This document shows, in pieces, positions 959 through 33,954 of a stretch of DNA of 64,000 nt. A model generated the notes under the pieces. That model had not been told where the DNA came from. It saw only the letters and a program-made list of their open reading frames with translations, and did no database searches. This DNA is from Flectonema sp. DT1601 (lineage: Eukaryota), in the NCBI GenBank assembly GCA_964019425.1, contig OZ025785.1, forward strand, positions 1,240,001 to 1,304,000. Direction: 5' to 3'. The position numbers and the translations under genes are program-made. Every line of letters starts with the position of its first letter. Position 1 is the first letter of the stretch.

Positions 959-1170
959 TCAGCACTCGCAATACGGTGAAATCGGGACAGATGTATCCTT
1001 GGAGAGTTCATTCATAATTATTTTGTGTCATTTCTATGCCACAGCATTGCCTTTTTTTATTTACACCGACTGATTAAGAGCCGTTATTTATTATTGTTGT
1101 TTGTGGTCAACTGTTTAGAATATTCTTATATCTTTTGATTTAACAGTGAAATGATTTACTGAAGGTCAAC

Positions 1171-3408: not shown

Positions 3409-3620
3409 TCAGCACTCGCAATTCGGTGAAATCGGGACAGATGTATCCTTGGAGAGTTCATTCATAATTATTTTGTGTCATTTCTATGCCACAGCATTGC
3501 CTTTTTTTATTTACACCGACTGATTAAGAGCCGTTATTTATTATTGTTGTTTGTGGTCAACTGTTTAGAATATTCTTATATCTTTTGATTTAACAGTGAA
3601 ATGATTTACTGAAGGTCAAC

Positions 3621-5858: not shown

Positions 5859-6070
5859 TCAGCACTCGCAATTCGGTGAAATCGGGACAGATGTATCCTT
5901 GGAGAGTTCATTCATAATTATTTTGTGTCATTTCTATGCCACAGCATTGCCTTTTTTTATTTACACCGACTGATTAAGAGCCGTTATTTATTATTGTTGT
6001 TTGTGGTCAACTGTTTAGAATATTCTTATATCTTTTGATTTAACAGTGAAATGATTTACTGAAGGTCAAC

Positions 6071-8308: not shown

Positions 8309-8743
8309 TCAGCACTCGCAATACGGTGAAATCGGGACAGATGTATCCTTGGAGAGTTCATTCATAATTATTTTGTGTCATTTCTATGCCGCAATTTATT
8401 ATTTTTTAAAATTTCCTTTTCTGGGATATGTTCTGCTTGTTTTACGCGCCATGCGGATCTTTAATACTAGCTGTTTCAGCGATTCAAATTTATGATTGGT
8501 TTCGGAAGTAGCGAGGTACAGAGGCGATCTATGTTTTCTTTATTTACCCTTTTAAATGTTAAAGACAAATAATATAGTTTTCCCATTTATGTTTTCTTTT
8601 TCTAGACGTAATTTGTCTTTGATTAACAACTGTTAATATTTTTTAGTCAAGTACTTGATATTAATTTTAATACCTAAAGTTGTTACTGTTCTTCCATTGT
8701 CAAAGTTTCACCCCCTTTTAAATGTTTCAGATTATTATTCAAA

Positions 8744-12083: not shown

Positions 12084-12886
12084 GTGACCTTGTCGCTCTC
12101 GATGATTGTGAGCCGAAAACAGCACGCGTTGTTTGTGAAAACCCTTTTCTACTTGGTTGTTTTTTTTTTGCAATCATTTTTAAACAATAAAGGTGGAACC
12201 CACTTTATAGTTTTTTTTTTTCTTTCCACATTTGTTAACTGTGCGTCATATCAAGCTGTGACTGTAGCTGCTGGATAACTGGCAATGTTCGCTTTAAGCC
12301 TATCGAGGTATTAAATTACCGAGGTCTACTCAATTTATTCTTTTTTTTTGCGCGTTCTGAGATAATTTCCTTCTACGAAATACTGACATTGTGATTATTT
12401 CACGGTTAGCTACAAAAGGAATGGAAACAAACCAATTCAGCGTGGCCCTAGTTGCATTTGTTTTGGGATTTGTTACTTTTGCCTTCCAGTATGATTCACC
12501 TATTTGTTTTTCATCTGGATGGTTTTGTTATGTCTATCTCCGCCTGCTGAATTGCAGTCTGAGTGAAGGATATACACCAGACTGCGGTCAGTAAAATTCC
12601 AAACGAAATCGTCTGTGAAGATTTCGATAGTTGAATTAAGTTTTGTAACGATGTACTGCGCAAACAGGAGGCTGAAGGATAACCGCTTACTGACAGCAGC
12701 TTTACTTTGGCCCACCACCCAGGGTGAGTCAAAGAATTTTAAAATGCTCCACTGTGAGCGTCCTTTTAATCTACGGTAAAAACTTTACCAACACTTTTGA
12801 TTTAATGATTGTATGCACCTTCATGTTACAAGATTATTGTTTCCCCCTTACAGCAAAAAAAAACTACCTTCTTCGAACAAAAATTT

Positions 12887-13957
12887 ATGATCCCTAATAA
12901 TGCTCATATATCACTGCTGGTTGTCATAGCCATCGCAGGTGGGGCAGAAGCCATGAATGCCACCGGTACTGTAACCTATTTATTAGCGTGTGATTCTTGC
13001 TGTGCTACGCCGGCGCCTGAATCAAAATCCTCAATACCAACTTGGATTTCTGTTATAGCAGGGATTGGGCTGTTGTTCCTGAGTGGATGTTTCAGTGGGC
13101 TGACACTCGGTCTTCTCGGTCTGGACACAATGGCTCTAAGGGCCGTTTCTGAAGCAGGCCAAGAGCCTCAAAAAAGCTATGCAAGAGCAATTACCCCACT
13201 GAGAAAGGATGGGAACCTACTATTGTGCACTCTCCTTTTGGGAAATGTCATGGTGAACGTAATGATTCCCATATTGTTGGCAGATCTGACGGGTGGTCTA
13301 TTCGGTTTTGTCTTCTCAACCGTTTTCATTGTTATTTTCGGGGAGATTGTTCCTCAAGCCACTTGTTCTCGCTATGCTCTTTACATCGGATCAAAATCTA
13401 TTCCCTTAGTATCTTTTTTCATGTTCATTTTGTACATCTTCGCCAAACCCATAGCAGTGGTTCTTGATAAACTCTTGGGAAGAGACGCAGGACAGATCTA
13501 TGATAAGTCAGAGCTTAAGCAACTGTTGTGGCAGCACCTAACAGAAGAGAAGCTGGAAGTAAGAGAATATCAAATTGTCTCGAGAGGATTGGATCTGCAA
13601 AAGACAGAAATTGAAGCTATAATGACCCCAGAAGACAAAATGTACAAGCTGGACATTGAAACGATACTTACTATTGATAAGCTACTCGAAATTTGGCAGA
13701 CTGGTCATTCTCGAATCCCTGTAGTTGAGAGAGTTCCTAACATGGAAAGTTCTTACCCTCCTCACCGTGAAGAATACATTGGTGTTCTGTACACCAAGGA
13801 TCTTATTACATGTCGGGTTGAAGATCGTGTTACCGTCAGACAAATTCTTGCTTTCTACAACCGAGGACCTCCACTCTTCTTGGACAAGAATACCAAGTTG
13901 GATGCTGCTCTTGATGCTTTCAAAAAGAGAAAGACGCACATGTCCATTGTCACCGAG
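12887..13957 (+). CDS. CNNM: CNNM/DUF21-CBS metal transporter, exon 1
   Basis: DUF21 motifs LSGCFSGLTLGLLGLD, LLCTLLLGNVMVN and IVIFGEIVPQA; CBS pair (IMTP, GHSRIPV, YIGVLYTKDL); donor GAG|GTATGA at 13958. Confidence 0.92.
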
Positions 13958-14086
13958 GTATGATTATTTTTTTTATGTTCCTTTTCCTTTCCTCCTCCTG
14001 TTGTCGTTGGAGTTCTAAGTTTCTCTTATTCAGGACAAGCAGTTAAAGCAAGCAACTCGTACTCCAGCTCATTAAATTGTTATTAA

Positions 14087-15621
14087 CCCTTACACCACCG
14101 TAAGAACCCCCAAAACAACGGGTCCAAAAATTTACTGTTTTTCAAAAGGAGAAAAGGTACCCCCCCAGAAAACCTATGTACCCAACCGGACACAACTACT
14201 CCTACGGGTCAATAGCACCTGTCACCCAGGTGCGTACCTCGGTGCGTTGTTGCACATTCAGCAGAACTAACAAAGTCGGCAGTGTCGCAATAACGTACTC
14301 AACGGTTTCCATTCATAGCAGCTGCATGTTATTCCCTTCCCGTATTTTGAAAGGGATAATGTTTCTGCGCAACATCATGTCAGAGGGAGCCCAAGTAAAG
14401 AGAATGCCAAATCACGGCCGATATTAAATCGAAAAATCAGATTTTCCCTGTTTTTTGAGCTTGTAAAAGCCCTCTGGTAGCGGAAAATACACAAACAACC
14501 CGCATCATGGCACAGCAGGTTCAGACACACAGGAGGATTACCGCATCGGGGTTGATAAGCTCGAAAAATATAAATAACATCGATCCCAGATCATGGAACT
14601 TCATTAGGAACAGTGCAGCTACTCAGATCAGACCGTGTTGGGCTGGATCTATAAACTTCCGCTCTTTACCCCACCAGCCTACTGGATTTTTGGGAAGTTG
14701 GCGGTTTAGGAACATCACGAGGAATTTTGTAGTTTTGGAGGATGTGATACCTTTTGAAACACGGGTAAGCACAAAGCGCTTGGTTGCATCGCTCACAGAA
14801 TTCTAGTGATTGTGCGCGCGCGGTACTGATGGTGTTATTAATAGTGTTGGTGCCGTTCTGGTACGTTTAAAATGTACCTATAAGCTGCCCAAAACAAAGC
14901 CAATTCGAAGGATAAGAATCTCTTGCTTCTCCAGCCAGATTCACTACTATCCGTCCAAATTCCACCATGCCCGTCACTTGACGAAGTATCTGACCCCAAA
15001 TGGGGAGGGGAGGTAACAAGGGTTACCAAGAATAAAAACACGTCTCCAAGAAACGTTAAAGATTAGAGTTGCACGCAACTCGGAGCTGCAGGTTTTTGAG
15101 TTTTTCTTCGGATAATCAGTTTTCCAGCTGATGAAGAAAAACTCTGAGGTCTATGCCTCACAGAGGAAGAAAATTTAAAACCAGTACGAGCAGGAGCGAA
15201 GGGCCTTTGTTGGCACAACACTACTGACGCGCCTCCCAATAAAATCTAACCTGGGGATTACTGGGGTTTGAATGACATGCTGTTGACCCCCTGTTGTTCT
15301 TTCCGCAAGTGTTTTCACATAATCGCTTCGCCGAAATACTGAGGAACTCACACTTCTCTGCGACGATGGATTAACAAATACTGTTGCATCCTCATCAGAA
15401 CTGTGGACCGACATATTTCCCAAGTTGATTTTGGCCAGCTTTAGCAAATGGAAAATTTACCATTTAATAAAAACTATTGCGGCGCAACATGTAAGGAACA
15501 TAAAAGACATCGCAATAATACCTCTCCTGTGAAATCGTTGTACTCAGAAATGCAAAATTTTCACTTAGCAAAAAAAAAATTTTTTTTTCAGACTGATATA
15601 TCAGCTCCGGTGGTGTAAGGG
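14087..15621 (-). mobile_element. Non-autonomous/decayed piggyBac-like DNA transposon in CNNM intron 1
   Basis: Perfect 14-bp TIRs CCCTTACACCACCG (14087-14100) and CGGTGGTGTAAGGG (15608-15621), flanked by TTAA and TTGA. Minus-strand remnant FCERCNQALCAYPCFKRYH (14744-14800) resembles the piggyBac transposase C-terminal Cys-rich domain. Confidence 0.82.
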
Positions 15622-15671
15622 TTGAGTTCATATTATTTTAAGTTCAGCTTCAACAATCACAACCAACACAG

Positions 15672-16099
15672 ACAATTTCCCCTGATCAGGGAGACCCTCA
15701 CGTTGAGGTTGCAGGCATTGCAACTTTAGAGGATGTAATCGAGCAACTTGTGGGTGAAGAAATTGTGGATGAGCACGACACCTACATCAACATAGGTGCC
15801 ACACGTATGAAAAAAACAGACCGTTCCACAAGCATCCCACTGGGAGCGCTCCAGCTTCAGTTGAAGAACATGCAGCATGAACAAACTGTCGCAATTGCCA
15901 AGTATCTCCAATATTCTCTCTCTGACCCATTTTCTGGGCTTTCTGAAAGCCAGGCCACATTTCTCATTAACAGGGTGGGAATGCGTGAGCTGCGCTGCTC
16001 TGTTAAGAATGTCCCAGATTCCATTACCTCGCAAGACAATGTGTGGCTGTACAAGAAAGACTGCACAATGGAAAACTTCACAATGGTGTTAAGTGGAAG
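15672..16099 (+). CDS. CNNM: CNNM transporter, exon 2
   Basis: Acceptor ACACAG at 15671; GDPHVEVAGIATLEDVIEQLVGEEIVDEHD completes CBS2; ends FTMVLSG-AG|GTGTGT. Confidence 0.9.
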
Positions 16100-16138
16100 G
16101 TGTGTATTCTTTAAATCAAATTATGAAAAAAGATAAAG

Positions 16139-16211
16139 TGGTCACAATGGGGCTCGAACCCATGGCCAATGGCTTATTAGACCAACGCTCTACCGACTGA
16201 GCTATGCGACC
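16139..16211 (-). tRNA. tRNA-Ile (anticodon AAT), copy 1
   Basis: Reverse complement GGTCGCATAGCTCAGTCGGTAGAGCGTTGGTCTAATAAGCCATTGGCCATGGGTTCGAGCCCCATTGTGACCA has an acceptor stem, D arm, CT-AAT-AA loop and GGTTCGAGCC T arm. Confidence 0.93.
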
Positions 16212-16599
16212 TCTGTTTTAAGAAAACCTTTTTCTTTTGAAGAAAACTTTTTATTTATAAAGAACTTCTAAAGAGAAACAAAAAGGTGTTTTTTATTTTT
16301 GCATTTAACAAGTATTGTAAGAACGAAAAAGAATGTTGGCAGCACACGTAAACCTCCTTTAGCTTTATCAGTCGGTTCACGGTTTCGTGCACAAACAAAA
16401 AATCACAGTGTTATATCATTATTTTCTGTATAGTTGAAGTTAAAGCCAATTCTTTTTTAAAAAACCTTCTCCCCGATACGTGTCAGGTTCCAATATTTTT
16501 TACGTCTTTTTTAATCAAAAAACGATTTTACGTAAAGCAATTTGGATGGCCCCAAGTCTTCTGAGTTACGAAACCTAAATCGGCTTCCGCCCGAAAAAG

Positions 16600-16672
16600 T
16601 GGTCACAATGGGGCTCGAACCCATGGCCAATGGCTTATTAGACCAACGCTCTACCGACTGAGCTATGCGACC
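16600..16672 (-). tRNA. tRNA-Ile (anticodon AAT), copy 2
   Basis: Identical 73-nt sequence to copy 1. Confidence 0.93.
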
Positions 16673-16975
16673 TCTGTTTTACGAGCTGCAACTTCGACAT
16701 GAAGTTTTTCGTTATTGTTCTTACCTTCTCCACATATTTACATATGTGATAAGTATAAGTCATATCTTACGATTGACAATTCCTCCCCATAAATAAATTT
16801 CTTTTTATTATTTTATTTTACACCTGCCTTACTAACTTGGGGAGAAAGAAAGGATGAACAATGGGCCTCTTATGAGGTGGGCAATTGCCCTGGACCCACA
16901 TTAAATGTACGCGTGTTTTGCGTCAGCCCGTTGCTGTAGAAAAAGAAGAGACAGTTTCAGGTAGTAATGAAAAAA

Positions 16976-17014
16976 AACCAACGATTCTAAAGCTACAGTT
17001 TCTGTACTTTATTG
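16976..17014 (+). ncRNA. Spliced-leader (mini-exon) sequence, retrocopied; not a complete SL RNA gene
   Basis: 39 nt, AACCAACGATTCTAAAGCTACAGTTTCTGTACTTTATTG. It ends in the euglenozoan SL 3' signature CAGTTTCTGTACTTTATTG and closely resembles the Diplonema SL as I recall it. It is not followed by a GT donor or SL intron. Confidence 0.88.
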
Positions 17015-17656
17015 TTTTTTCCCTCCCTCGCCCCATCCCCGTCAGCGAGTAGGAAAGCGCAGCTAGGAATTTTTCCACGCAAGCGGATCCCACAACCCGA
17101 CCACCCTTCCCCACGCTCACCCCATCCACCCTCCCCCACCCCAACAAAAGAAGAAAACGGCGGCAGCCACGTGACACACTCGTGTTCGTGTAGCGAAGCG
17201 TTTCGGCGACTTCGAAGACGACGACGACGACGACGACGTAGAAGAGACGGTGTATGTGACTGACCTTCTTCTTCCTTATTTATTTGTTTACTTTTGTTAA
17301 TTACTTCCTCTTAATTTCATTCCTCTCTTAGATTGTTGTTTATTTGCTTATTTATTTGTTTGTTTATTTGTCTGTTTATCTGTCTGTATATTCTGTTACT
17401 ATCTGTTATTTTGTTACATTTATCTGTAGTACATTTTTGTTATTGTTAAATTAAAACATCTTCTTCACAGTTTTTTCCCTCCCTCGCCCCATCCCCGTCA
17501 GCGAGTAGGAAAGCGCAGCTAGGAATTTTTCCACGCAAGCGGATCCCACAACCCGACCACCCTTCCCCACGCTCACCCCATCCACCCTCCCCCACCCCAA
17601 CAAAAGAAGAAAACGGCGGCAGCCACGTGACACACTCGTGTTCGTGTAGCGAAGCG
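17014..17656 (+). repeat. 187-bp direct repeat pair (17014-17200 and 17470-17656)
   Basis: Identical gttttttccctccctcgcc...gtgtagcgaagcg, offset 456. Copy 1 follows the SL; copy 2 follows TTCTTCACAG. Confidence 0.95.
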
Positions 17657-17718
17657 CTTAGCGCTTTAAAGTCTTTTAAGTCGCAGAAGTCGCCCCCGTC
17701 GCCCCCCGACCCCCACAG

Positions 17719-17772
17719 GGTATTGAACCCAGGTGGACCAGAAGACAGACGGTGACAAAAACCACTGCGCCA
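17719..17772 (-). promoter_or_regulatory. tRNA-like Pol III internal promoter (A box and B box)
   Basis: Minus strand TGGCGCAGTGG (A box, 17772-17762) and GGTTCAATACC (B box, 17729-17719), 32 nt apart; no complete cloverleaf seen. Confidence 0.6.
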
Positions 17773-18007
17773 AAGTATATTGTTGAAAAAAAAATTTTTT
17801 ATTGTTTATTATATATATTAATTAGGTCATATTTATTTAGAAGAATTTGGTATTACTTGTCGTTGTTTATTTAGAAAATACTAAGGAAGAAAGAGGAAGA
17901 AAAAAAAAAAAAAAAAAAAAAAGAAATTAGATTTTGCATAGGCATACTTGCAGAGGAGGAGATAAACGCGGGTCCTTCAGTAAGCTCTAGTACATCGGCG
18001 GGGTAGG

Positions 18008-18052
<45 letters not shown>

Positions 18053-18303
18053 CATCTATCTTCGGTCTACGAACGCTTTGAGTCGGCCAGCAGTCACAAA
18101 CGGACATTGAAGGCGCGGATAATTGTTGTTGCTGTGGAAACCTTGCTCTGCTGAAGAAGGAGTTGAAATTTTCCCCACCTGCATTCTGATTCGAGTTGTC
18201 TTCGAGAGTACTTTGCTTTGGTCAAAAAAAAGTTACTTATTCATCCAGCTCATACGTCCTTCTCATCTTTTCTGGAGACTGGACCGCTGGTGAACGCGCA
18301 AAC

Positions 18304-18600
18304 AGAACAAATTTTTTCTTTTGTTCTTCATTAAAACTACACTGAGACACGGTCTTCCGCAATACATCGCACGAACAGAACATATCCTTTCTTGTTCTCG
18401 TTTAAACACCGCTTTAAGACAGCGAAAAGAACATATCCTTTTTTTTGTTCTTGTTTAAACTCTGCTTTGATACACGGTCTTCCGCTAGTCAGCGCGCGAG
18501 AAGAACATATCTTTTCTTGTTCTCGTTTAAACTTTGCTTTTAAGACCTGCAAACAGAGCATATCTTTTTTTTGTTCCTGTTAAAACTCTTTTTTAAGACA
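18304..18600. repeat. Degenerate tandem repeat with internal palindrome AGAACA-N10/11-TGTTCT (about 5 copies, ~126-bp higher-order period)
   Basis: Recurrent agaacatatc(c/t)ttt...tgttct(c/t)gtttaaac...ctttaagac; acacggtcttccgc occurs twice about 125 bp apart. Confidence 0.75.
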
Positions 18601-18753
18601 AAGCGTTACGAATCAGCCTGCGGGAGGAGAAGGAAGAACTCTCTCACTAGCTTTGTTTGGTGCCCGTGGTGGTGACTACCATTCTGCGTCGGAACTGTAC
18701 GGGGGTGACCGCATAGACAGAAGAGTTCGGAAAGCGGAGGATACGCGAGCCAG

Positions 18754-18784
<31 letters not shown>

Positions 18785-18895
18785 ACTCCACACACACGTA
18801 CAGGGCTAACAAGGAGAAGAGCAGGTAAGTCGATTGTCTTTTTTCGGGTTCCATACACAAATCATCCACAGCGAAGAGAACGGAAAAGGAAGAGT

Positions 18896-18938
<43 letters not shown>

Positions 18939-18941
<3 letters not shown>

Positions 18942-21900
18942 AGAATGGAGAAAACAATGTTACTGTGTGGGTACGTGCTGCTGTGGGCACTACTAAGTGG
19001 AACGAGGGCGCAACAGACGTCCGGAGTGGGTAAGCAGAGGTTAGCCCCAGTGCCAGGCGGATGGCACACCCCTCTTTTCACAACGCTGGACAAAGGCCCA
19101 CTGTTTTCATCGCGCATCAGCCGACGCGTAACACGCCCGATCCCCCCGCACCCATTTATAACCCCCAACAGCTCAAACAGCCCCAACAATACGGCAAGCG
19201 GACGCGCTTTCCAACATGGACGAGAGGGGGTGTGGGTCCCGCGGAGGGGAACGGAAACGGCCGGGAACCGGGTGAGGCGAGACCACCCAAAGCCACCTCC
19301 AGACAAGGGAGGAAGGGAGCTCCTGAAGAGGGCGTCCCCGAAAGTGGCGTCCAAGGCGGCAAGGCGGCTGGAAAGGAGGAGGAGGAAGCTGCTGAAGGAA
19401 CGGCAGGAGAGGTGGGAGCGGTGGGCGGGAGAGTTGGAGAAGTTCCACGCCAGGCGAGAGAGGTTCCGCGCGGAGACAGAGAGGCCAAGGAAGAACAAGG
19501 CGGAGACACCGAGGAAGCGACGGGCAGGGCCCGAAAGGGACTGGACAAAGCCAGGAGGGCACAAGGCGGAGCCCAGACCATGGTATGCGAGGCCGTCAGA
19601 CCTGGCAGGAGGAGGGCAAAGCAAGGAGAGGACGAAGTGCCCGGTGGTGGGGTGCAGCGTCTGGGTGAGGGGTGACCTAGAGTACCACTTCAAACAACAC
19701 CTGAAGGGAGTGGTACCGGGGGAGGTAACGGCCCAGATGGCATCCGACAGACTCGGAAAGCAGATCTGCAAGGCCTGCGGGGAGCTGAGTACCGGATTGG
19801 TGCACCAGACAGTGAGGTGTCGGGAGATGTTGGACCTCAAGGGACGGCTGGGGGTAGCGACGGGACCCACGCCGGAACTGGCAAGCCTGAAGTGCGAGGG
19901 AGCAAAAGTATTCCGGGTGATTGGGGATGGGAATTGCCTGTTCAGGAGTGTGTGCCAACTCCTAGAGACGCCAGAGGGGTGGAAGGGCAGACATGGAGAG
20001 CTCCGCAGGAGAACGGCAGGATACCTGACCAAGAACAGGGAAAGGTTCGAGGTCTTCTTCCAGGACGCGGACGCATTCGGAGTATATGCGAGGGCGTTGG
20101 AAGAGGATGGATGCTGGGGCGATGCATTGGCCCTACAGGTCATGGCAGAGGACCTACAGTGCCGCTTCGTCGTCGTGGTGAGGACGGAAACGCTGGTGGT
20201 GGAAGGGCCATCGGACCCGAAGCGGACGCTGGTCTTGACCCTGCAAAACGGGTGCCACTACGACCCAGTGGAGGCATCCGAGGACTGCGTCGCGCGGCTG
20301 CTACAGAGCGCCCGGAGGTTGGAGTTAGTGTCGCCAGGCCCGCTGTCGCAAGCAGCAGGAGGCGAGCCGGCAGTGCTGCAGACAGCCTCCCGACAGGCCC
20401 AGCTGCACGAGTGCCCCCAAGCGGAGTGCCCGAAACACAAGGGAGGCTTCGAGGAGTGGGCGGAGCTCCTAAGACACGTGGACGAGCACGCATTCAGTGG
20501 CAACCCGCTGACGCATGGACAGTTGGCGAGGCTAGGCCTCCGGGAATGTCCGGTGTGCTGTGGGATCATCGGGCAGGACCAGCCGATGCATCCGGGGTGC
20601 AGTGAGAAACTGCAGAAGGTCCAACTGGGGGACGTGTACACGGCGTTCCGGAAGCGGGTGCTGGAGAGCCAGAGCTTCCCCTCTTTGGAGGAAATAGCCA
20701 GCAGGAGGAGGCCGATAGCGAAGAAGCTGCCGGTGCCCCTGTTGCACCATTTGGGGCGAGCACTCAAGCTGGCGCTTGATCTAGTCGTGGAGCGGAACGA
20801 TGAGTGGGCATGGAAGCTGCTCTTGATGCTCCCGACTTGTACACTGCGGAGGATACGGAGGGGGGGTAGGAGGTTGTCGACCAGCAATCTGACAGGGGCT
20901 GTCGACGACCTGCAGGCATGGATTCGGGGGGATTTTGAGGGACTGTGGAAAGCGGCGGCCCCCCGCAAGGCGACGGGAAGGCCAGCAGTGAAAGAGGCGG
21001 GGCAAAAAGGAAGGAACGACAGGGCCACGTCGCTAGCGAGGGAGGGTTGCCTGTCACAGGCGATCTCGGCCCTAGACGCGCCGCCGCCAGCAGAACGAAC
21101 CGAGAAGGTGCTGGAGCAGATGCGCACCCTACACCCGAGGGCGAGCGGACCCCCATCGGCCACGGCAGGGCAGGAGGTGCAGATAGCAGAGGTGGAGCTG
21201 CTAGCATGCCTACGCTCCTTCCACAGGGGGTCGAGTGGAGGGCCTTCGGGCCTCGCGCCGCAACACCTGAAGGACGTGGTGGAGCGGGGTGAGGTGCCGG
21301 GGCTGGTAGCCTCGATCACGGAGGTGGTGAGGATTCTGGCGAACGGGAGGGCGCCGCGGGAAGTAGCGCCGCTGCTGGCGGGGGCGAACCTGACGGCGCT
21401 GGAGAAAGAAGGGAAGCCGGGGGAGCACCGGCCAGTCGCGGTGGGGGAAACATGGAGGCGGCTGGTGGCGAAGATCCTGTGCGGGGCATACAGGTCCCAG
21501 GCGAGGAGCTCGTTGCTAGAAGTGAGACAACTGGGAGTAGCGGTGTCGGGGGGAGTGGAGGCGGCGGTGCACACCCTGCATGAGTTCCGCGCGGAGCACG
21601 CGCTCTCGTCACAGAAAGTGTTCGTGAAGATAGACTTCTCGAACGCCTTCAACTGCGTGAAGAGGGGGGCGTTCCTGGATTCGACGAGGGATACCCTGCT
21701 GGAGAGCTGGGTCAGCTGGTGTTACGGAGCGCCGACGTGGTTGCTGTTTGGGGACGAGAGGCTGAGCTCGGAGGAGGGCGCTCAGCAGGGGGATCCGTTG
21801 GGTCCCTTGCTGTTCTCGCTGGCAATCAAGCCGGCGCTGCAGAAGGTGTTGGAGGCGAAGCCGGAGTTGGCGTGCTTCTACCTGGACGATGGGCTGGTGG

Positions 21901-24900
21901 CGGGCACCCTGGAACAGGTAGACAAGGCCCTCCAAATCCTGCAGAAGGAGACGGCGGAGCTGGGGCTGACGCTGAGGCCGGACAAGTGCCAGACGCACGT
22001 GCTCGACTCAGCCCAGAACACCCTGCCCTTGGGGTGGGGGTTGGAAGGGATGAGACCCCCACTGTACAACGGGGACTTCCTGGGGGCACCGTTCGGGACG
22101 GAGGAACACTGCCAGGAGTTCGTCGACAGGAAGGTGGCGCAGCTGGAGAAGAAAGCGGAGCTGCTAGCAGACCTGCAGGACCGGCAGGTGGCCATGGTGC
22201 TCCTAAGGCAATGCATGGGCTTCTGCAAGGTGACCCACCTGATGCGATGCTGCACGCATGGGAAAATGGACACCTCGATGCGGAAGGTGGACGAGCTGAT
22301 GAGGTCCACGGCGAGCCGAGTGTTGGGCCTGACACTGGAGGGGCCAAAGTGGATGCAAGCACAACTGCCGACCCGGATGGGGGGATTGGGGCTGCGGTCA
22401 TGTGCAGAGCACAGGGGAGCAGCACTATTGGGATCCCTGGAATTAGTCCAAGGGGTGAGCAAGTCACTGTGGGAGGGGTTCAAGGGGGTGCTGATGCCAG
22501 CACTGAAGAAGGGGTTGAACCTCGCCCTCCCGGAGGAGCTAAGGATAGAAGAAGACGGGCCGGGGCCGAACCCCCAGAGGCTGTCCTCGGCGAAACTGGA
22601 CCAGGTCAAGAGAGACTGCCTGCTGGCGGGGGCGAATGACCCGCGCGATAAAGGGAGGCTGCTCTCCCTGCGCATGGATAAGGCGAGCGCATGGCTGCAA
22701 CAAGCAGATGAAGAGTGCGCGATGGACCCAGAGACGTTCAGGATCGCATGTGGGATGCGATTGGGCGCAGCGCTGTTCGCGGAAGGGGCAGTATGCAGGA
22801 TATGCTCAGGCCCACAGGATAGGCAGGGATACCATGCCTCAATCTGTATCAAAAACGGCCACGTGCACCAGCGACACGAGAGGGTGAAGGAGGAGTTCAT
22901 CTCCATCTTTAAGCAGGCGGGATTGCCGCTGCTGAGAGAACCCAGCCACCTACTGGGACCCAACAAGCAGAGACCGGGGGACTGGTACTGCCAAGAGGGG
23001 CTGAGGGAGGGGAGAGGCAGAGCCTTCGACATCACAGTGGTAAACCCGGGGAAAATTAAATTGTATAAAACCCCGGGGCAAGCCGCGAGAGAAGCAGAGT
23101 CCCTGAAAGGGAACAAGTACGCGGAGCAGTGCACGAAACACGGGATTAATTTCTCGACAATTGCGCTGGAAGCGTACGGAGGGATGGGACGGGAAGCAGT
23201 GGGAACCCTGAAGAAGTTGGTGCAGATCTGCGCAACGAACTCGACGGTGCCACACCGGGAGATCGCGGGGGAGATGGCGAGGAGGATCTCGACATCGGTG
23301 GTAGTGGCGACGGCGGAAGCACTGAGAGCGAGGGAGGCGTCGGTGGCGATGGACTCAGTGAACCCATTGCCAAGGACGAAACCGCCGCCCGAGATGACGG
23401 AGAAGCCGACATCACAAGAGAGAGAACCAAGACCGAGAGCGGAAACGGAAGAGATCCAGCAGCCGGAAGTAATGCGACAGTCGGCAGGACCGCCCCCGAC
23501 GATGAGAGGTTTGCCGAACATCGGGAACTCCTGCTACCTCAACGCGTCCGTACAGTGCCTGCTGAAGGGCACGGCACTGACACAAGTGCTGACGGGGAAG
23601 GAGGAAGTGGGGATGTCGGGCCTCCTGAGTGGAGTGGTCAAAGGGAGTGGGGAGTGCCTGGAGAAGCTGTCCGAGATGTTCGACCCGCTACAAGACAGGC
23701 GGCAGGGGGAGGTAGTAGGAACCCTGACGTCCATAGTAGACGCCCTGTTGGAGGAGAAGAAAGAGGTGTGCGAACCGTTGTTCTCGGCAGTACAGCTGAA
23801 ACAGCTGGTCTGCACGGGATGTGCGGACGCCTCCGGATCGACGGATGAGTTGACGCTGATCCCACTGTGTGGCCGTACACCACAAGTGAGGCTTCAGCCG
23901 ACGAAGGAGAGAGTCGAGCGGTCCTGCGAGAAGCTGTGCGGCAGCAATGAGGCCACGCTGGAAGAGAGTTTCGCCTCGCTCCCAAGCTCCTTGATCTTCC
24001 AGAGAGACAAGCAGGACACGCAAGGGTCCTTGGGATGGGAAGAGCGCTTCCAGGTGCAGGTCGGGGAGAGGGTGATGACGTACCAGCAAACGGGAGCGAT
24101 CGCACACCTCGGGAGTGACAACGCGGGGCATTACGTGTCATACACGTGGGACGGAGTAGGCTGGCAGAAGCAAGACGACAAGGCAATAAGCCAAGTGTCG
24201 ACAGAGGAGATCCACGGGACGAAACCAGTAGTAGTGGTCTACTCGAGGGTGGAGGGATCGACCCAAGAGGACGTCGGGGTGCCGGTGAGATGGATTCCGG
24301 TGGCGAACAAGGACCGGATGGAGGTACGCGAGGCACCGCCGTCGGAGGAGGACACCGCGGGGTACACGTCCAGGGAAGAGGCGGAGTGTGTCCTCCGGAC
24401 GCGAGTAGTAGGGGGGCAGACGCAGCGCAAGCTGCTCTTACTGGTATCGAGCGTCTGGAACGCGGAGATGGAGAAGCTGGGGGCGGCAGCATGCCTGATA
24501 CACATGGGAACGCTCGACAGGAGGTTCACGTGGTCGGGCTGCCTACCGACATGGGACGAAGCGACTGCGGAGTACGTGGCAGCGCTGCTAGGGCTCAACG
24601 CGATCAGGGAGAGATCGCAACTGCTGGGGGGTGAGACACAGATCGAGGTGGTCACACCGCAGCAGGGGTGGGGAGTCGAGCAGCAGGAGGCGCTGAAGTT
24701 GGTAGCGCTCCCGTCGGTGATAGAACACCAGGTGACGGAAAGCTCACGAGGGGTGGAGAACCTGGCCCTCTGGGAAGCGGAATCGGCGGCATGGGACGAG
24801 CCGGTGGAACTCTCGGAGGACGGGCTCGACTACTTGGTGATCGAGCTGGAGATGAATCTGGGGCTGTCCCAATTGAGGGGAAAGGCGGTGGAACCGGATG

Positions 24901-27900
24901 AATCCCAGTCGCTCCCAGGAGGGTCGACGGCATCAGGCGAAGACAGACCACGAGCCGAAGCGCCAGCCCAGGTGGAAGCGCAGACGACGGAAGCACAAGG
25001 AGCGGAAGCAGTAGGGCTGAGAGACGAGCCAGCACAGGAAGTGGGACAACCCGAGGAAAAAGAGCCCCCATCCCCCGACCCCCCGTCGAAGGAGGAGAAG
25101 CTGTATGCGGTGGCGGTGGGATGGAAACCGGGAGTGTATGCATCGTGGGAGGAGGCGAAGGCACAGACGGAAGGGTGCCCGAATGCGACACACCAGAGTT
25201 TCTCCTCCAGGAAGGAGGCGGACAGGTTCGTAGAGAGGTGGCAGCCGGAGACCAGGGAACCGACCCGGGCCACGGAGGGTGTCAGCCCACGTAAGTGGTA
25301 CGCAGTGGCGAGGGGCAGGGCGGTAGGCCTGTTCCAATGCTGGAACGAGGCGAACTCGATGGTGTCAGGCTACGCGGCGGCGAGACACAAGAGTTTCGCA
25401 AGCAAGGGGGAGGCGGAGGGATACCTCCGAACCCACCTGCTGGGGGAGGTGGTTGGCGAAGTAGGGACGAGGTACACCTTGGTGTACGCATGCGAGGAAG
25501 ACCCGGTAACGGGCCGTCTGGGGGCGGCGGCGAGCTGGTTGGACACACACCGTTTCGAGGTGTTGGGCACATGGTCAGCTGGCCTGCCAGCGGGAGACAC
25601 ACACTGGGGGCGATACTTCGCAGCCCTGGTGGGGCTGGTAGCGGCCAAGGCGTGTGGAGGCCCCGTCCCAGCGGAGGCATCCCTGCTGCTGCGAGGAAGC
25701 ACGACACACTGGTCGACGGACCAGAGAGAGGTGCTGGAGGAGGCGGAGTTGATGGGGAGGCGTACGACGCTGGTGGAGATGCCAGAGAGGATGAGAACAC
25801 ACGCGACGGAGGAGGCTGAAAAAGCGGCGAAGGAGGGCTCGACCTCAGTGACGGAAGCCGTGATGAAGGTTTTCACAGAGGGGGCAAAGAACTGCCTGGG
25901 ACACGGGACACAGACGGGTCCCTTCACGGTGCGGTGGGAGGGAAGACAACTGCGTCTGGAACCCCAGTACACAGAAGAGGGGACGGGATCGTCAGGCGGC
26001 CGAGAGTCGGTGGAAGGAGAAGACGCGAGGGTAGAGGGCCGAGACGAGCAGAGCCCGGTCCCAACCCCGAAGGGGGCCGTGCAAAGGGTAGAGGCGGGAG
26101 TCCTGGAGTTGAGCTCGGAAGGGTCGGAGGGAGATGACGATAGATCATCCTCCCCAGCGACAGGGCAGGACGAAGGGAACGGTTCCATGTCGGGAGGCTC
26201 CTTGGGGAGTCCAGGGACGTCGGACATGGAAGTAGAAGAACAGACGGACGAAAGGGACCAGTCGGTAGACCCGTCGGCAGCAGAGACCTCAGGCGAAAAC
26301 CATCACCTGGCCGAGGACCTGCAAGTCGAGAAGGGGGACGAGCTGGACGAGACGTCCCACCACTCAGGAGAGCCACCGTCGTCAGACGGCATGGACGGAG
26401 TGGAGGGGTTGGAGGACCTGGAAGACTCACAGTCGGAGATGGAAGTCGACGGAGAAAATGTGACGGAAGGGTCAGTAGTCCAGTACGTCGAGGAGACGTC
26501 AGAGGACGTGGTCCAGGTGGCAGAGTCGGACACAGAGGAGGAGGGATCGTCAGACTCCCAAATGACCATGACGGTCGATGAACAGGAATGGGAAGAGGGA
26601 GCGGCGCCCGAGGGGAACGCAGGTCAGATGGCCTGGATGCTGGGACTACACCCAGAAGGGGGGAACGCGGAAACACGACGGGAGGGCCAATCGGAGCCCC
26701 TTTCAAAGCTGGTGAACTCAGGCGAAACAAAACCAATGGCCGAGAGATCCAGTTTGGGGGCGAAGATGGGACCACGCGCAGTGGGTAGTGACGGGAGCGG
26801 GGAAGACGCAGAGAGATCGCCGGGCACGGTGTCGACACCGAGCACGAGAGGGAGGACGAAGTACAGAAAGGGAATGGAGGAGGAGAGGGAGGAGTGTGTG
26901 TCGCCGAAGACAAATACGGGAAGGGGACGCACGAGAGGCCGGAAGGCAAAGACGGGGGCAAAGGGGGCCGGAAAGGAGGACCCAAGTCCGCAGGTGTTGC
27001 AGGCGGAAATGGGAGAGTCCACCCCGAGCTCAGGTGAACGGCAGGCGAGGAGGAGGTACAGGAAGGGAGAAGAGAGGGAGAGGATAGAGGTTCTCTCCCC
27101 AGACCCGAGCAGGAAAGCGAAGAGGAAGAGACGCAAGCAGAAGGAACCGGAGCCAGTGGAGGGCACCACGAGGGAACAGGCGCCGCGGAGTTACAACAGG
27201 AAACCCACACTGCGTCGGGTAGGTAAGGGAGACACACCCGACACAATGGGGTACGCACACGGGCCCCCGGGCTCCCTGACCTCGTTCACGGACGCGGGCG
27301 TACGCCCGGAGCCGGCGGAGCGAGACGGACAAGGTGTGGCAGGAGTAGAGTTGGTCACAAGGTCGTCGTCACAGAGTGAGAAAAGCACCCAAGGAGAGAT
27401 GAGGGAGAGAGAAGGGGATCCAACACGAAGGGTCCTGGACTTCTCGTCGAAAGGGGGAAGGTGCTAGGGACTCCACGAAGGAGGTCTCAAGAGTCGAGGA
27501 AAAAACAGAGCCAAGACCCCAGAGCCAACCCAAAACACATGGTAGAGGACGAGGGAGAACAAGAGCGGGAGCGAGGTTAGAAACGTGACCAAAGCCCCCG
27601 CGAAGCAGGAGACACAACCTGCAACCAGACCCCCCCCAAAAAAAAAAACCCCGGTCAACGAGGCAAACTCGGACCAAAACATGCTTTTCACCCCCCCCCC
27701 AGGAAACACCGACCAGTGGAGCCAAAGGCCACACACATATTATAAAAATCAAAGGCCGCCCCCCAACCCAAGAAAAGGATGAAAAACTTTCAAGCGAAAA
27801 AACTTGACGTCCGTGCGCCCCAGAGATCAAAGGACGGACGACTCACACCCCCTTCTTTCGCCCCATTTTATTTACTGGTACAGCGACAAATGTAAAGCTG

Positions 27901-28198
27901 GGTAGACGACGAATTATTCTTTGTGCACAGAGACAAGGGATCCATGAGAACAAAGGATCAAGAGAAGAAGTGCACATTCCCCCTTCCCAAACCCAGAAAC
28001 ATGAGAACTCATTAAATTGAAGGGTCATGTCTTTTCAAGTCGAAAAATGCTTAAATGCAAAAGAAGACTGTCGTCCCCAGCTCGCGGGTTTTCCCTGTCG
28101 CTGTATGTCGAGACAACGATCAGAGTCAGAAGAAGGATTGTACTATTAACAGCATAATGAAAAAGGACAAAGAGAGTAGTTTCCATTTTATCTTCCCG

Positions 28199-28273
<75 letters not shown>
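18939..28273 (+). mobile_element. CRE/SLACS-like non-LTR retrotransposon (RT + restriction-like endonuclease) with OTU and USP domains; the 5' boundary may extend to 16682
   Basis: Single long GC-rich ORF, ~730-nt 3' UTR and an A75 tail (28199-28273) abutting tRNA-Ile upstream flank sequence. Confidence 0.9.
18945..27467 (+). CDS. Retrotransposon polyprotein: ZnF-OTU-ZnF-RT-CCHC/RLE endonuclease-USP-RNaseH-like-2x RNase H1 N-terminal (hybrid-binding)-RNaseH-like-acidic tail
   Basis: OTU: GDGNCLFRSV...WGD...HYD. RT: SSGGPSG, RPVAVGETWRRLVAK, QLGVAVSGG, KIDFSNAFN, GAQQGDPLGPLLF, YLDDG, QLPTRMGGLG. RLE: CRIC..HASIC, RHE, RPGD..FDITV, KGNKY, ALEAYGG. USP: GLPNIGNSCYLNASVQCL...HLG..AGHY..W..QDD. 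HBD: YAVAVGWKPGVYASWEEAKAQ and YAVARGRAVGLFQCW. The first ATG after the A40 tract is taken as the start. Confidence 0.9.
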   Translation: MEKTMLLCGYVLLWALLSGTRAQQTSGVGKQRLAPVPGGWHTPLFTTLDKGPLFSSRISRRVTRPIPPHPFITPNSSNSPNNTASGRAFQHGREGVWVPRRGTETAGNRVRRDHPKPPPDKGGRELLKRASPKVASKAARRLERRRRKLLKERQERWERWAGELEKFHARRERFRAETERPRKNKAETPRKRRAGPERDWTKPGGHKAEPRPWYARPSDLAGGGQSKERTKCPVVGCSVWVRGDLEYHFKQHLKGVVPGEVTAQMASDRLGKQICKACGELSTGLVHQTVRCREMLDLKGRLGVATGPTPELASLKCEGAKVFRVIGDGNCLFRSVCQLLETPEGWKGRHGELRRRTAGYLTKNRERFEVFFQDADAFGVYARALEEDGCWGDALALQVMAEDLQCRFVVVVRTETLVVEGPSDPKRTLVLTLQNGCHYDPVEASEDCVARLLQSARRLELVSPGPLSQAAGGEPAVLQTASRQAQLHECPQAECPKHKGGFEEWAELLRHVDEHAFSGNPLTHGQLARLGLRECPVCCGIIGQDQPMHPGCSEKLQKVQLGDVYTAFRKRVLESQSFPSLEEIASRRRPIAKKLPVPLLHHLGRALKLALDLVVERNDEWAWKLLLMLPTCTLRRIRRGGRRLSTSNLTGAVDDLQAWIRGDFEGLWKAAAPRKATGRPAVKEAGQKGRNDRATSLAREGCLSQAISALDAPPPAERTEKVLEQMRTLHPRASGPPSATAGQEVQIAEVELLACLRSFHRGSSGGPSGLAPQHLKDVVERGEVPGLVASITEVVRILANGRAPREVAPLLAGANLTALEKEGKPGEHRPVAVGETWRRLVAKILCGAYRSQARSSLLEVRQLGVAVSGGVEAAVHTLHEFRAEHALSSQKVFVKIDFSNAFNCVKRGAFLDSTRDTLLESWVSWCYGAPTWLLFGDERLSSEEGAQQGDPLGPLLFSLAIKPALQKVLEAKPELACFYLDDGLVAGTLEQVDKALQILQKETAELGLTLRPDKCQTHVLDSAQNTLPLGWGLEGMRPPLYNGDFLGAPFGTEEHCQEFVDRKVAQLEKKAELLADLQDRQVAMVLLRQCMGFCKVTHLMRCCTHGKMDTSMRKVDELMRSTASRVLGLTLEGPKWMQAQLPTRMGGLGLRSCAEHRGAALLGSLELVQGVSKSLWEGFKGVLMPALKKGLNLALPEELRIEEDGPGPNPQRLSSAKLDQVKRDCLLAGANDPRDKGRLLSLRMDKASAWLQQADEECAMDPETFRIACGMRLGAALFAEGAVCRICSGPQDRQGYHASICIKNGHVHQRHERVKEEFISIFKQAGLPLLREPSHLLGPNKQRPGDWYCQEGLREGRGRAFDITVVNPGKIKLYKTPGQAAREAESLKGNKYAEQCTKHGINFSTIALEAYGGMGREAVGTLKKLVQICATNSTVPHREIAGEMARRISTSVVVATAEALRAREASVAMDSVNPLPRTKPPPEMTEKPTSQEREPRPRAETEEIQQPEVMRQSAGPPPTMRGLPNIGNSCYLNASVQCLLKGTALTQVLTGKEEVGMSGLLSGVVKGSGECLEKLSEMFDPLQDRRQGEVVGTLTSIVDALLEEKKEVCEPLFSAVQLKQLVCTGCADASGSTDELTLIPLCGRTPQVRLQPTKERVERSCEKLCGSNEATLEESFASLPSSLIFQRDKQDTQGSLGWEERFQVQVGERVMTYQQTGAIAHLGSDNAGHYVSYTWDGVGWQKQDDKAISQVSTEEIHGTKPVVVVYSRVEGSTQEDVGVPVRWIPVANKDRMEVREAPPSEEDTAGYTSREEAECVLRTRVVGGQTQRKLLLLVSSVWNAEMEKLGAAACLIHMGTLDRRFTWSGCLPTWDEATAEYVAALLGLNAIRERSQLLGGETQIEVVTPQQGWGVEQQEALKLVALPSVIEHQVTESSRGVENLALWEAESAAWDEPVELSEDGLDYLVIELEMNLGLSQLRGKAVEPDESQSLPGGSTASGEDRPRAEAPAQVEAQTTEAQGAEAVGLRDEPAQEVGQPEEKEPPSPDPPSKEEKLYAVAVGWKPGVYASWEEAKAQTEGCPNATHQSFSSRKEADRFVERWQPETREPTRATEGVSPRKWYAVARGRAVGLFQCWNEANSMVSGYAAARHKSFASKGEAEGYLRTHLLGEVVGEVGTRYTLVYACEEDPVTGRLGAAASWLDTHRFEVLGTWSAGLPAGDTHWGRYFAALVGLVAAKACGGPVPAEASLLLRGSTTHWSTDQREVLEEAELMGRRTTLVEMPERMRTHATEEAEKAAKEGSTSVTEAVMKVFTEGAKNCLGHGTQTGPFTVRWEGRQLRLEPQYTEEGTGSSGGRESVEGEDARVEGRDEQSPVPTPKGAVQRVEAGVLELSSEGSEGDDDRSSSPATGQDEGNGSMSGGSLGSPGTSDMEVEEQTDERDQSVDPSAAETSGENHHLAEDLQVEKGDELDETSHHSGEPPSSDGMDGVEGLEDLEDSQSEMEVDGENVTEGSVVQYVEETSEDVVQVAESDTEEEGSSDSQMTMTVDEQEWEEGAAPEGNAGQMAWMLGLHPEGGNAETRREGQSEPLSKLVNSGETKPMAERSSLGAKMGPRAVGSDGSGEDAERSPGTVSTPSTRGRTKYRKGMEEEREECVSPKTNTGRGRTRGRKAKTGAKGAGKEDPSPQVLQAEMGESTPSSGERQARRRYRKGEERERIEVLSPDPSRKAKRKRRKQKEPEPVEGTTREQAPRSYNRKPTLRRVGKGDTPDTMGYAHGPPGSLTSFTDAGVRPEPAERDGQGVAGVELVTRSSSQSEKSTQGEMREREGDPTRRVLDFSSKGGRC

Positions 28274-28277
<4 letters not shown>

Positions 28278-28366
28278 TAAGAAAACTTTTATTTATAAAA
28301 AACTTTTCTTTTTTTTGGAGGAGACACGAGTCACGATCCAGGACCAACACTCAAAAAAAAAAAAAA

Positions 28367-33650: not shown

Positions 33651-33954
33651 AAGAGTGAAAAGGAAGACAGAGTTGTATGTAAACTGTATGTAAATGTAAG
33701 AAGAAAGAAAAAACACGCTGGAAGTGGGAGTGCAACCATCAGCGCAAACACAACCACAAATATTGTTTTTTTTTTTTTTCCTTTTTCTTTTCTTCGCTTC
33801 GGCGACAGATATGGTAGGACCTAGAAAACCGGCCCAAAACTTGTGTTGCAGTTTATCTTTTTAGCGCACACTCATGTAACATAAGGATCGCTGGTTCCGA
33901 GGGTTTGCTCTCCTGCCATACTTGCCTCTCACCTCCCTCAAAAAAAAAAAAAAA

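What the first reader, a model, noticed from the sequence alone, without database searches (positions are those of the whole stretch)
16976..17656. Genomic spliced leader fused exactly where a duplicate of the same sequence has a splice acceptor: SL-R-(GT...AG)-R
Seen: the full 39-nt SL is joined to a 186-nt segment R (17015-17200). The second R (17471-17656) is preceded by a U-rich tract ending TTCTTCACAG, so SL+R is exactly the product of trans-splicing at 17470. A GTATGT donor-like site lies at 17252. Inference: a trans-spliced RNA was reverse-transcribed to its very 5' end and reinserted. A retroelement in a host intron could get a capped 5' end by trans-splicing, with the duplicated R plus a spare acceptor replacing the signal lost each cycle. 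SLACS/CZAR 5' regions also carry ~185-bp repeats as I recall, which may be coincidental. Alternative: a separate SL-headed non-autonomous retroposon ending at the A23 tract (17900-17922).
Basis: partly seen in the sequence, partly recalled or inferred. Interest (0 to 1): 0.85.

Follow-up and report, generated by a model that had tools for sequence, protein, structure and literature searches.

The report
Leader-capped retrotransposon with spare splice acceptor
A young jumping gene in a marine protist genome carries an exact DNA copy of the host's 39-base mRNA leader, fused where a repeat of the same sequence has a splice-acceptor-like site, so its RNA was likely capped by the host's trans-splicing before being copied back into DNA, and the repeated unit may act as a reserve of such sites for the next round.

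Summary
Observation confirmed: a 39-nt SL (16976-17014) is joined to R (186 nt, exact duplicate at 17471-17656, preceded by CAG). The same 39-mer is followed by GT, as an SL RNA gene, in two runs that also hold this repeat. SL-R lies inside an 11.6-kb CRE-like insertion (6-bp target duplication GTTTTA, 3 nt upstream of a tRNA-Ile gene; 2840-aa OTU-RT-RLE-UCH ORF; A75 tail), from a young family with two other full-length ORFs at 99.5-100% identity. From 17255 to the ORF start there is no ATG (0 seen, 9.8 expected; longest such stretch in the window), so R heads the element's leader rather than a separate retroposon. Three runs hold the 456/462-bp unit (R + linker + GT..AG) as a closed-loop contig, pointing to longer tandem arrays elsewhere. 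Corrections: the SL is not the end of the insertion (294 extra nt precede it), and no RNA data could test splicing. Best reading (0.6): a trans-spliced, intron-retaining element RNA was retroposed and keeps one spare acceptor. That the array exists to resupply acceptors is untested (0.3). New variant of a known kind.

The parts
16599..16672 (-). tRNA-Ile(AAT) gene, one of three copies; its 5' end lies 3 nt from the insertion site, head to head with the element
16676..16681 (+). left target-site duplication GTTTTA
   Evidence: the other two tRNA copies continue GTTTTAAGAAAAC here
16682..16975 (+). segment P: 294 nt of unknown origin inside the target duplication, ending in A6; 7 ATG, so not part of the ATG-free leader; likely the 3' end of another RNA joined by template jump (inferred)
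   Evidence: no similarity elsewhere in the window or to fetched loci; no Rfam match
16976..17014 (+). complete 39-nt spliced leader exon, not followed by GT
17015..17200 (+). R, first copy (186 nt, C-rich)
17201..17251 (+). 51-nt linker with a (GAC)n run
17252..17470 (+). 219-nt intron-like segment: GTATGT ... T-rich ... CAG; holds the only ATG between SL and ORF (17254), followed at once by TGA
17471..17656 (+). R, second copy, identical to the first, directly after the CAG
17657..18944 (+). rest of the ATG-free leader: four A runs (23, 42, 28, 40 nt) and a 125-bp repeat at 18298-18589
18945..27467 (+). intact 2840-aa ORF: OTU protease-like, reverse transcriptase, restriction-like endonuclease motif (22794-23030), UCH protease-like, two RNase H1 N-terminal (Cauli_VI) domains
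27468..28198 (+). 3' untranslated region
28199..28273 (+). poly(A) tail, 75 nt
28274..28279 (+). right target-site duplication GTTTTA, continuing as tRNA-Ile upstream flank
12809..16099 (+). host CNNM-family gene, first exons; a donor-like GT at 16100 opens the inferred intron that holds the insertion (exon limits read from the frames, not from RNA)

Best explanation
This is a full-length copy of a young CRE-like retrotransposon whose DNA holds the host spliced leader fused to a 5' repeat unit, likely because the element's RNA was trans-spliced at the acceptor of one unit and then reverse-transcribed to its capped end while the next unit's intron was still in place. Step by step: (1, shown) the 5' region is SL-R-linker-GT..AG-R followed by an ATG-free leader, the ORF and a poly(A) tail, bounded by a 6-bp duplication next to a tRNA gene. 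(2, inferred from closed-loop contigs) donor copies carry longer arrays of the 456-bp unit, each ending in an acceptor. (3, inferred) the element has no promoter of its own and rides on read-through transcription; the host splices SL onto an acceptor, which supplies the cap and cuts off upstream RNA. (4, inferred) an RNA trans-spliced at the second-last acceptor was copied by target-primed reverse transcription; at the cap the enzyme jumped to the A-ending 3' end of another RNA and added segment P. (5, predicted) this copy can be trans-spliced once more at 17470, giving an ATG-free SL-R-leader-ORF mRNA, but its daughters would have no acceptor unless the array regrows by unequal exchange or by template switching between R copies.
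For: SL identity and GT-followed gene form in the two runs that also hold the unit at 0 differences. Junction in register with the CAG. No ATG on the + strand from 17255 to 18944: 0 seen against 9.8 expected in 17471-18944, 0 of 2000 shuffles as low, ATG the only absent trinucleotide of 64, 22 CAT on the same stretch, and the longest ATG-free run of the window (1691 nt; next 464 on +, 971 on -). Both spliced forms are ATG-free and the unspliced form has only an ATG-TGA start-stop. X1, X3 and X4 each hold one contig of 486 or 492 nt that reads spacer end-R-49 nt-spacer and repeats the same 30 nt at both ends, a closed 456/462-bp loop, with no SL or tail branch laid. In X2 the unit piece has depth 9.4 and the seven ORF pieces listed 2.2-4.2. 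X5's single matching contig is exactly 17470-17656, ending at both branch points of the duplication (depth 2, about 40% of the run read, so weak). The SL's upstream flank differs from that of the SL gene in X1 and X2, and no SL remnant follows the tail. The family is young: a cluster of 35 proteins; 2 of the 15 listed are full-length at 99.5% and 100% identity. A second euglenozoan case: L052 has an SL-like 36-mer, not followed by GT, 15 nt before the ATG of a related RT ORF.
Against: No independent contig spans the SL-R junction in the 7 runs laid. The insertion does not start at the SL, so an extra step (template jump or two insertions) is needed. The 5' ends of the other copies could not be read. 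The closed-loop contigs are not physically linked to the ORF; X1 and X4 hold the unit but nothing of the ORF's first 770 bases, which also fits a free-standing array. Contig depth is not a copy number (tool's caveat). The CAG at 17470 is only the third most T-rich AG of the unit, and other candidate acceptors lie downstream (for example 17718). 5' tandem repeats are common in this clade without any known splicing role.
Confidence: 0.6

Rival explanations
1. The 456-bp unit is an independent tandem array (a satellite or an array of small trans-spliced non-coding genes). An SL-capped RNA from it was joined to the front of this one retrotransposon copy by template switching, so SL-R is a passenger and not a heritable part of the element.
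For: X1, X3, X4 hold the unit as a closed loop without the tail; X1 and X4 lack the ORF start. The insertion already contains one apparently captured piece (P). The leader has its own candidate acceptors downstream of R2. Chimeras of LINE copies with other RNAs are documented for LINE-1 (PMC13174262 passages).
Against: R2 passes into the ATG-free leader with no A run or other seam at 17656/17657; the one ATG in the unit sits in the donor and is closed by a stop; X5's contig ends exactly where R1 and R2 diverge; no Rfam family and no unusual fold (z 0.23 and -0.72) suggests a small RNA gene in R.
Confidence: 0.17
2. The SL comes from DNA, not from trans-splicing: a parent copy sits in an SL RNA gene right after the exon, as trypanosomatid CRE elements do, is transcribed from the SL promoter starting at +1, and a daughter landed off-target next to a tRNA gene.
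For: CRE1, CRE2, SLACS and CZAR insert in SL RNA genes. That CRE1's duplication ends at the exon's last base and that SLACS is transcribed from the SL promoter are recalled, not read here. L052 fits this arrangement as well.
Against: It does not explain why the element's first base is exactly the base that follows CAG in the repeat, unless trans-splicing set that end earlier. The only target that could be read is a tRNA flank; no SL remnant follows the tail; the SL-gene contigs of X1 and X2 continue with GT, not with R.
Confidence: 0.13
3. One reading: a separate SL-headed non-autonomous retroposon that ends at the A23 run (17900-17922), with further short A-tailed inserts between it and the CRE-like ORF.
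For: Four long A runs divide 17657-18944 into pieces that each look like an A-tailed 3' end.
Against: Unrelated 3' ends would carry ATGs, as P (7 in 294 nt) and the 3' UTR (11 in 731 nt) do; 17901-18944 has 0 against 6.8 expected, 0 of 2000 shuffles. No target duplication was seen between the pieces.
Confidence: 0.06
4. Assembly artefact: an SL-bearing transcript or a collapsed repeat was stitched into the contig.
For: No independent contig spans P-SL or SL-R; R1 and R2 are identical, and the true number of units may be larger.
Against: The SL is internal, flanked by genomic-looking sequence and enclosed by a target duplication that matches the tRNA flank; the downstream intron-like segment is unspliced; element pieces match X2 at about 99%.
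Confidence: 0.04

Closest known systems
CRE clade of trypanosomatids: CRE1, CRE2, SLACS, CZAR (PMC12278014, PMC5814959, PMC3636483 passages)
   Same: Single long ORF with RT followed by a restriction-like endonuclease, poly(A) tail, target duplication, internal repeat regions, SL sequence at the 5' junction.
   Different: Those elements sit inside SL RNA genes, so their SL is target DNA with the rest of the gene after the tail. Here the target is a tRNA flank, no SL remnant follows the tail, the repeat unit ends in an acceptor-like CAG in register with the SL, and the ORF adds OTU, UCH and Cauli_VI domains.
MoTeR / FoTeR telomeric CRE-related elements (PMC12857005 passages)
   Same: Same endonuclease motif order; variable-number tandem repeats concentrated 5' of the ORF.
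   Different: No trans-splicing role is described in the passages read; the target is the telomere.
SL-tagged retrogenes of dinoflagellates (PMC5585692, PMC12014239, PMC6050394; search listing and abstract starts only)
   Same: A DNA copy of the trans-spliced leader marks a reverse-transcribed mRNA.
   Different: Those are passive copies of cellular mRNAs; here the SL heads the retroelement's own leader and is followed by a spare acceptor.
Cer1 of C. elegans (PMC3315495 passages) and L1Tc/ingi Pr77 (PMC5814959 passages)
   Same: Retrotransposons in trans-splicing hosts; Cer1 has an SL1-accepting site.
   Different: Cer1's full-length 8-kb RNA was not trans-spliced; L1Tc makes its 5' end with an internal promoter and ribozyme and lacks SL. 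Neither leaves SL in the DNA copy.
Mouse L1 5' monomer arrays (recalled, not read)
   Same: A tandem array at the 5' end holds the signal that defines the RNA start, so losing part of it per cycle is tolerated.
   Different: There the signal is a promoter; here it would be a trans-splice acceptor.
tRNA-gene-specific RLE elements NeSL-1_TV, LIN15_SM, LIN25_SM (PMC4640811 passage)
   Same: RLE-type elements that target tRNA genes.
   Different: They are NeSL-related. tRNA targeting here rests on one insertion.

Membership tests
CRE clade non-LTR retrotransposon | Single ORF with reverse transcriptase | tested here: met
   RVT_1 E 7.5e-17 in one 2840-aa ORF; R2 proteins are the best solved relatives
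CRE clade non-LTR retrotransposon | Restriction-like endonuclease after the RT (CCHC, RH, E, RPxD, D) | tested here: met
   aa 1284-1362 match a pattern relaxed from the PMC12857005 passage; it reads RHE for RHD/N, RPGD for R/KPD, and several spacings differ by 1-2 residues
CRE clade non-LTR retrotransposon | Poly(A) tail and target-site duplication | tested here: met
   A75 and GTTTTA on both sides
CRE clade non-LTR retrotransposon | RT phylogeny with named CRE1/SLACS/CZAR/MoTeR | not tested
   No protein named as one of these came back among the rows listed (one search has no names), so no tree was built; 'CRE-like' rests on motifs and architecture
SL-gene-specific CRE elements (SLACS, CZAR, CRE1/2) | Insertion inside an SL RNA gene, with part of the SL duplicated after the tail | tested here: not met
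   tRNA flank after the tail; no other SL 12-mer in the window; upstream flank unlike the SL gene in X1 and X2. Other copies not testable
SL RNA gene | 39-nt exon followed by GT and the SL intron | tested here: not met
   Followed by R; the GT form exists separately in X1 and X2
Retroposed trans-spliced RNA | SL joined in DNA at a splice-acceptor position | tested here: met
   Junction equals the base after CAG in the second copy
Retroposed trans-spliced RNA | SL is the 5' end of the inserted DNA | tested here: not met
   294 nt lie between the left duplication and the SL
Retroposed trans-spliced RNA | SL is added at that acceptor in RNA | not testable with these tools
   No run on record as RNA; all laid runs are contigs
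Promoter-linked DNA-encoded SL of giant viruses | AAAAT(T)GA ending 18-19 nt before the SL and T at -1 | tested here: not met
   18 of 18 non-GT collection copies have both; the window has neither
HDV-like ribozyme or other known RNA at the 5' end (R2, L1Tc type) | Rfam match or unusually stable fold | tested here: not met
   (one chance match, E 3.2)

The most novel reading that the evidence does not exclude
A retrotransposon family that has replaced a promoter with a magazine of disposable trans-splice acceptors: a 5' tandem array of exon-intron units, one or more spent in each round when the host adds the capped leader, and refilled by template switching of its reverse transcriptase between identical R copies. 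Copy fitness would then be counted in remaining units, and the genome would hold a ladder of SL-(unit)n copies ending in dead n = 0 copies.
Probability: 0.3. Interest if true: 0.82.

Novelty: new variant of a known kind. Interest (0 to 1): 0.62.

Why it matters
Non-LTR elements must regain, in every cycle, the signal that makes their RNA's 5' end. Known answers are internal promoters, ribozymes, monomer arrays, or sitting in a transcribed target gene. This copy suggests another: use host trans-splicing for the cap and carry spare acceptors. It gives a direct test (count units behind SL in each genomic copy; map SL junctions in RNA). It also offers a reading of two old CRE-clade features, the SL at the 5' junction and the 5' repeat regions, as products of trans-splicing, and it hints at a CRE-like element that targets a tRNA flank.

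Tried and rejected
No whole genome is held, so a genome-wide search for R and SL-R was impossible. No RNA holder listed. No joint 17251/17471 (cis-spliced unit) and no SL-R-spanning contig in the 7 runs laid; X6 and X7 had nothing laid; all are low-depth contigs, so this shows no absence. The one GT..AG-like joint listed (15696-18545, X3, 21-nt side) is from unrelated DNA and was ignored. A 25-nt R pattern found 0 metagenome contigs; R and P had only low-complexity hits among the 52 SL loci. Rfam: only tRNAs at gathering score, nothing credible in 16673-18950. R is not unusually structured. Three protein searches and the representative search gave many RT relatives at about 30-45% identity but no named SLACS/CRE1 protein, so no tree. 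The viral promoter geometry was tested on the window's SL and is absent. Earlier-finding look-ups by sequence, by place and by one word set returned nothing. The supplement search of PMC10161547 found no SL sequence in the 7 files held as text; a supplement not held could list diplonemid SLs and name the group more exactly.

Full report
Observation. The 39-mer is at 16976-17014, R is identical over 186 nt at 17015-17200 and 17471-17656 (period 456), the second R follows TTCTTCACAG, and GTATGT starts at 17252. The GT..AG segment is 219 nt, 56% T. No other piece of the SL of 12 nt or more occurs in the window.

The 39-mer is a spliced leader. In two public runs (X1, X2) it is matched exactly and continues with GT, as an SL RNA gene does; the same runs hold the repeat unit with 0 differences. 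Collection scans gave 52 loci with 54 matches; 50 of 54 are identical over 39 nt, and 32 of these 50 continue with GT. A published euglenozoan SL agrees at 37 of 39 positions (PMC3795323, one passage); that this published sequence is the Diplonema one is recalled. Host genes of the window have GT-AG introns read from their frames; diplonemids are intron-rich and kinetoplastids intron-poor (PMC11613528 passages), and D. papillatum has a 39-nt SL exon and many SLACS-like RT genes (PMC10161547, passages and section 10; supplement search). The host is therefore probably a diplonemid (inference).

Setting. SL-R lies in the 5' part of an 11.6-kb insertion. An ORF from 18945 to 27467 (2840 aa) has OTU, RT, UCH and two Cauli_VI domains and a restriction-like endonuclease motif at 22794-23030 that fits a relaxed CRE-type pattern; R2 proteins are its best solved relatives. 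It ends in A75 (28199-28273). What follows the tail is the upstream flank of the tRNA-Ile genes (17 nt identical to the third copy's flank), and GTTTTA occurs both there and 3 nt from the 5' end of the second tRNA copy. So the insertion runs from 16682 to 28273 with a 6-bp duplication, head to head with the tRNA, in the sense of a host CNNM gene after a donor-like site at 16100. The family is young: the protein cluster has 35 members; of the 15 listed, two are full-length (99.5% and 100% identical; the latter on a 43.6-kb contig, shorter than this window) and 13 are partial.

R belongs with the ORF. From 17255 to 18944 the + strand has no ATG. For 17471-18944 the count is 0 against 9.8 expected, none of 2000 dinucleotide shuffles is as low, ATG is the only trinucleotide absent, and the opposite strand has 22. 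It is the longest ATG-free stretch of the window (1691 nt; next 464 on +, 971 on -). The part after the A23 run alone gives 0 against 6.8. The only ATG between SL and ORF is inside the donor motif and is followed at once by TGA; both the trans-spliced and the cis-spliced form are ATG-free. This is what a scanned 1.5-kb 5' leader looks like, and it speaks against a separate retroposon ending at A23. R itself is too short for its lack of ATG to count alone (the whole first unit has 1 against 4.0, 6% of shuffles), so the link of R2 to the leader also rests on the absence of a visible seam.

The unit is probably a longer tandem repeat. Three of the four runs first laid (X1, X3, X4) hold one contig of 486 or 492 nt reading spacer end, R, 49 masked nt, spacer, with the same 30 nt at both ends: a closed loop of 456 or 462 bp. 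A structure with only two R copies would give branches to the SL and to the tail at depths like the spacer's; none was laid, though X4's loop has depth 19.6 and X1's 10.5 (X1's SL gene contig: 5.0; X3's loop only 2.2). In X2 the unit piece has depth 9.4 and the seven listed ORF pieces 2.2-4.2. The tool warns that contig depth is no copy number and that a filter drops records, so this is a hint of arrays several units long, either at the head of other copies or elsewhere. X5's one matching contig is exactly 17470-17656, the stretch between the two branch points of the window's duplication; at depth 2 with about 40% of the run read it is weak support. 5' tandem repeats are usual in this clade (PMC12278014 and PMC12857005 passages).

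A correction. The SL is not the first base of the insertion: 294 nt (P) lie between the left duplication and the SL. P ends in A6, has 7 ATG, resembles nothing in the window or the fetched loci, and differs from the SL gene's upstream flank in X1 and X2. The simplest account is a jump of the reverse transcriptase from the capped end to the A-ending 3' end of another RNA (end-to-end jumping by R2-type enzymes is recalled; LINE-1 chimeras by template switching are described in PMC13174262 passages). Two successive insertions, or P as a fixed part of the family, are not excluded.

Mechanism. I commit to this: element RNA made by read-through is trans-spliced at the acceptor of a 5' unit; an RNA that kept the next unit's intron was reverse-transcribed to its cap and inserted by the tRNA gene. 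The copy keeps one acceptor (17470) and can make a capped, ATG-free mRNA once more. The anatomy is shown; trans-splicing as the source of the junction is inferred from register (about 4% by chance for any AG, 0.7% for the three most T-rich ones; this AG ranks third), and I put it near 0.8; R as part of the family's leader near 0.75; together 0.6. That arrays are kept and refilled to replace spent acceptors is untested (0.3).

Rivals. A free array captured by template switch (0.17) fits the loops found without ORF in X1 and X4. A parent in an SL RNA gene transcribed from the SL promoter (0.13) fits what is known of CRE1, SLACS and CZAR (PMC5814959, PMC3636483 passages; details of CRE1's duplication and SLACS transcription recalled) but leaves the register unexplained. 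A separate retroposon (0.06) and an artefact (0.04) are least likely.

Parallels. L052, a contig in a bacterial bin, has a kinetoplastid-like SL (last 36 nt; not followed by GT) 15 nt before the ATG of a related RT ORF, with no repeat of the following 18 nt; only 15 nt of upstream DNA exist, so target and mechanism cannot be told. Two unchecked notes of this scan report SL-headed LINE copies in a euglenid. Cer1 has an SL1 site, but its full-length RNA was not trans-spliced (PMC3315495 passages); L1Tc makes SL-free RNA. tRNA targeting is known for NeSL-related elements (PMC4640811 passage).

Literature. Ten searches listed no paper describing an SL-headed CRE-like copy with a repeated acceptor. 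I saw listings and abstract starts, and passages of 13 papers (those cited, plus PMC13393146, PMC5871332, PMC6597758); the original CRE1, SLACS and CZAR papers were not read, and they may discuss trans-splicing as the source of the 5' junction.

Side result. Of 51 SL matches with enough upstream DNA, the 18 not followed by GT (17 distinct) all have AAAAT(T)GA ending 18-19 nt upstream and T at -1; 0 of 33 GT-followed ones have the motif; background 0.1%. Three short matches were left out. These loci are gene-dense and some carry giant-virus markers (Pox_VLTF3, TFIIS, Bro-N, KilA-N); AAAAATTGA is the giant-virus early promoter (PMC5871332 passage). This scan has noted the same for dinoflagellate and kinetoplastid leaders. 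The window's SL lacks that geometry.

Verdict. Real feature; new variant of a known kind; interest 0.62.

Noticed in passing
L004, L005, L009, L010, L017, L018, L023-L025, L033, L036, L042, L044, L045, L047-L050, L055: Giant-virus-like contigs carry the complete 39-nt diplonemid-type SL in DNA in front of genes, with AAAAT(T)GA ending 18-19 nt upstream and T at -1 (18 of 18 non-GT copies, 0 of 33 GT-followed). One 238-kb viral contig has four such genes and a Pox_VLTF3 gene. Points to giant viruses of diplonemids whose early mRNAs would start with the host leader. L055 has a one-base variant with the same geometry; L057 has a kinetoplastid-type SL without that motif.
   Followed up: partly
L052:19-54 and 70-2184: SL-like 36-mer, not followed by GT, 15 nt before the ATG of an RT ORF related to the window's (tblastn E 1.7e-12): a second euglenozoan SL-headed CRE-like element, in a contig binned with a bacterium.
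   Followed up: partly
window 16138-16211, 16599-16672, 36142-36215: Three tRNA-Ile(AAT) genes on the minus strand inside the inferred CNNM intron, the first two 461 bp apart; X1 and X2 hold near-identical spacer pieces, so this may be a multi-copy tRNA unit used as a target.
   Followed up: partly
window about 28320-33650: A second, 5'-truncated element (UCH and two Cauli_VI domains, no RT found, 320-bp internal duplication) starts about 45 nt further into the same tRNA upstream flank; no nucleotide similarity to the first element.
   Followed up: no
window 33946-41300: Several copies of an RT/RNase H-type element in both orientations (RVT_1 at 36714-38837, minus strand) fill the rest of the intron.
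   Followed up: no
window 18945-19015: The ORF starts with a hydrophobic, signal-peptide-like stretch; relatives P0002 and L052 also have hydrophobic N-terminal segments, which is odd for a retrotransposon protein.
   Followed up: no
window 17204-17215 and 17688-17697: The linker after R1 and the tail after R2 contain a short complementary stretch (about 10 nt); significance not tested.
   Followed up: no
window 16790-16845: P contains a T-rich tract, TACTAAC and an AG 9 nt later, resembling a branch point and acceptor.
   Followed up: no
window 1-8310: Tandem array of adenylate/guanylate cyclase genes, period 2450 bp, 98-99% alike.
   Followed up: no
window 57185-57266: tRNA-Ser(CGA) on the minus strand directly after the first part of a split protein kinase reading frame, so probably another intronic tRNA.
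   Followed up: no
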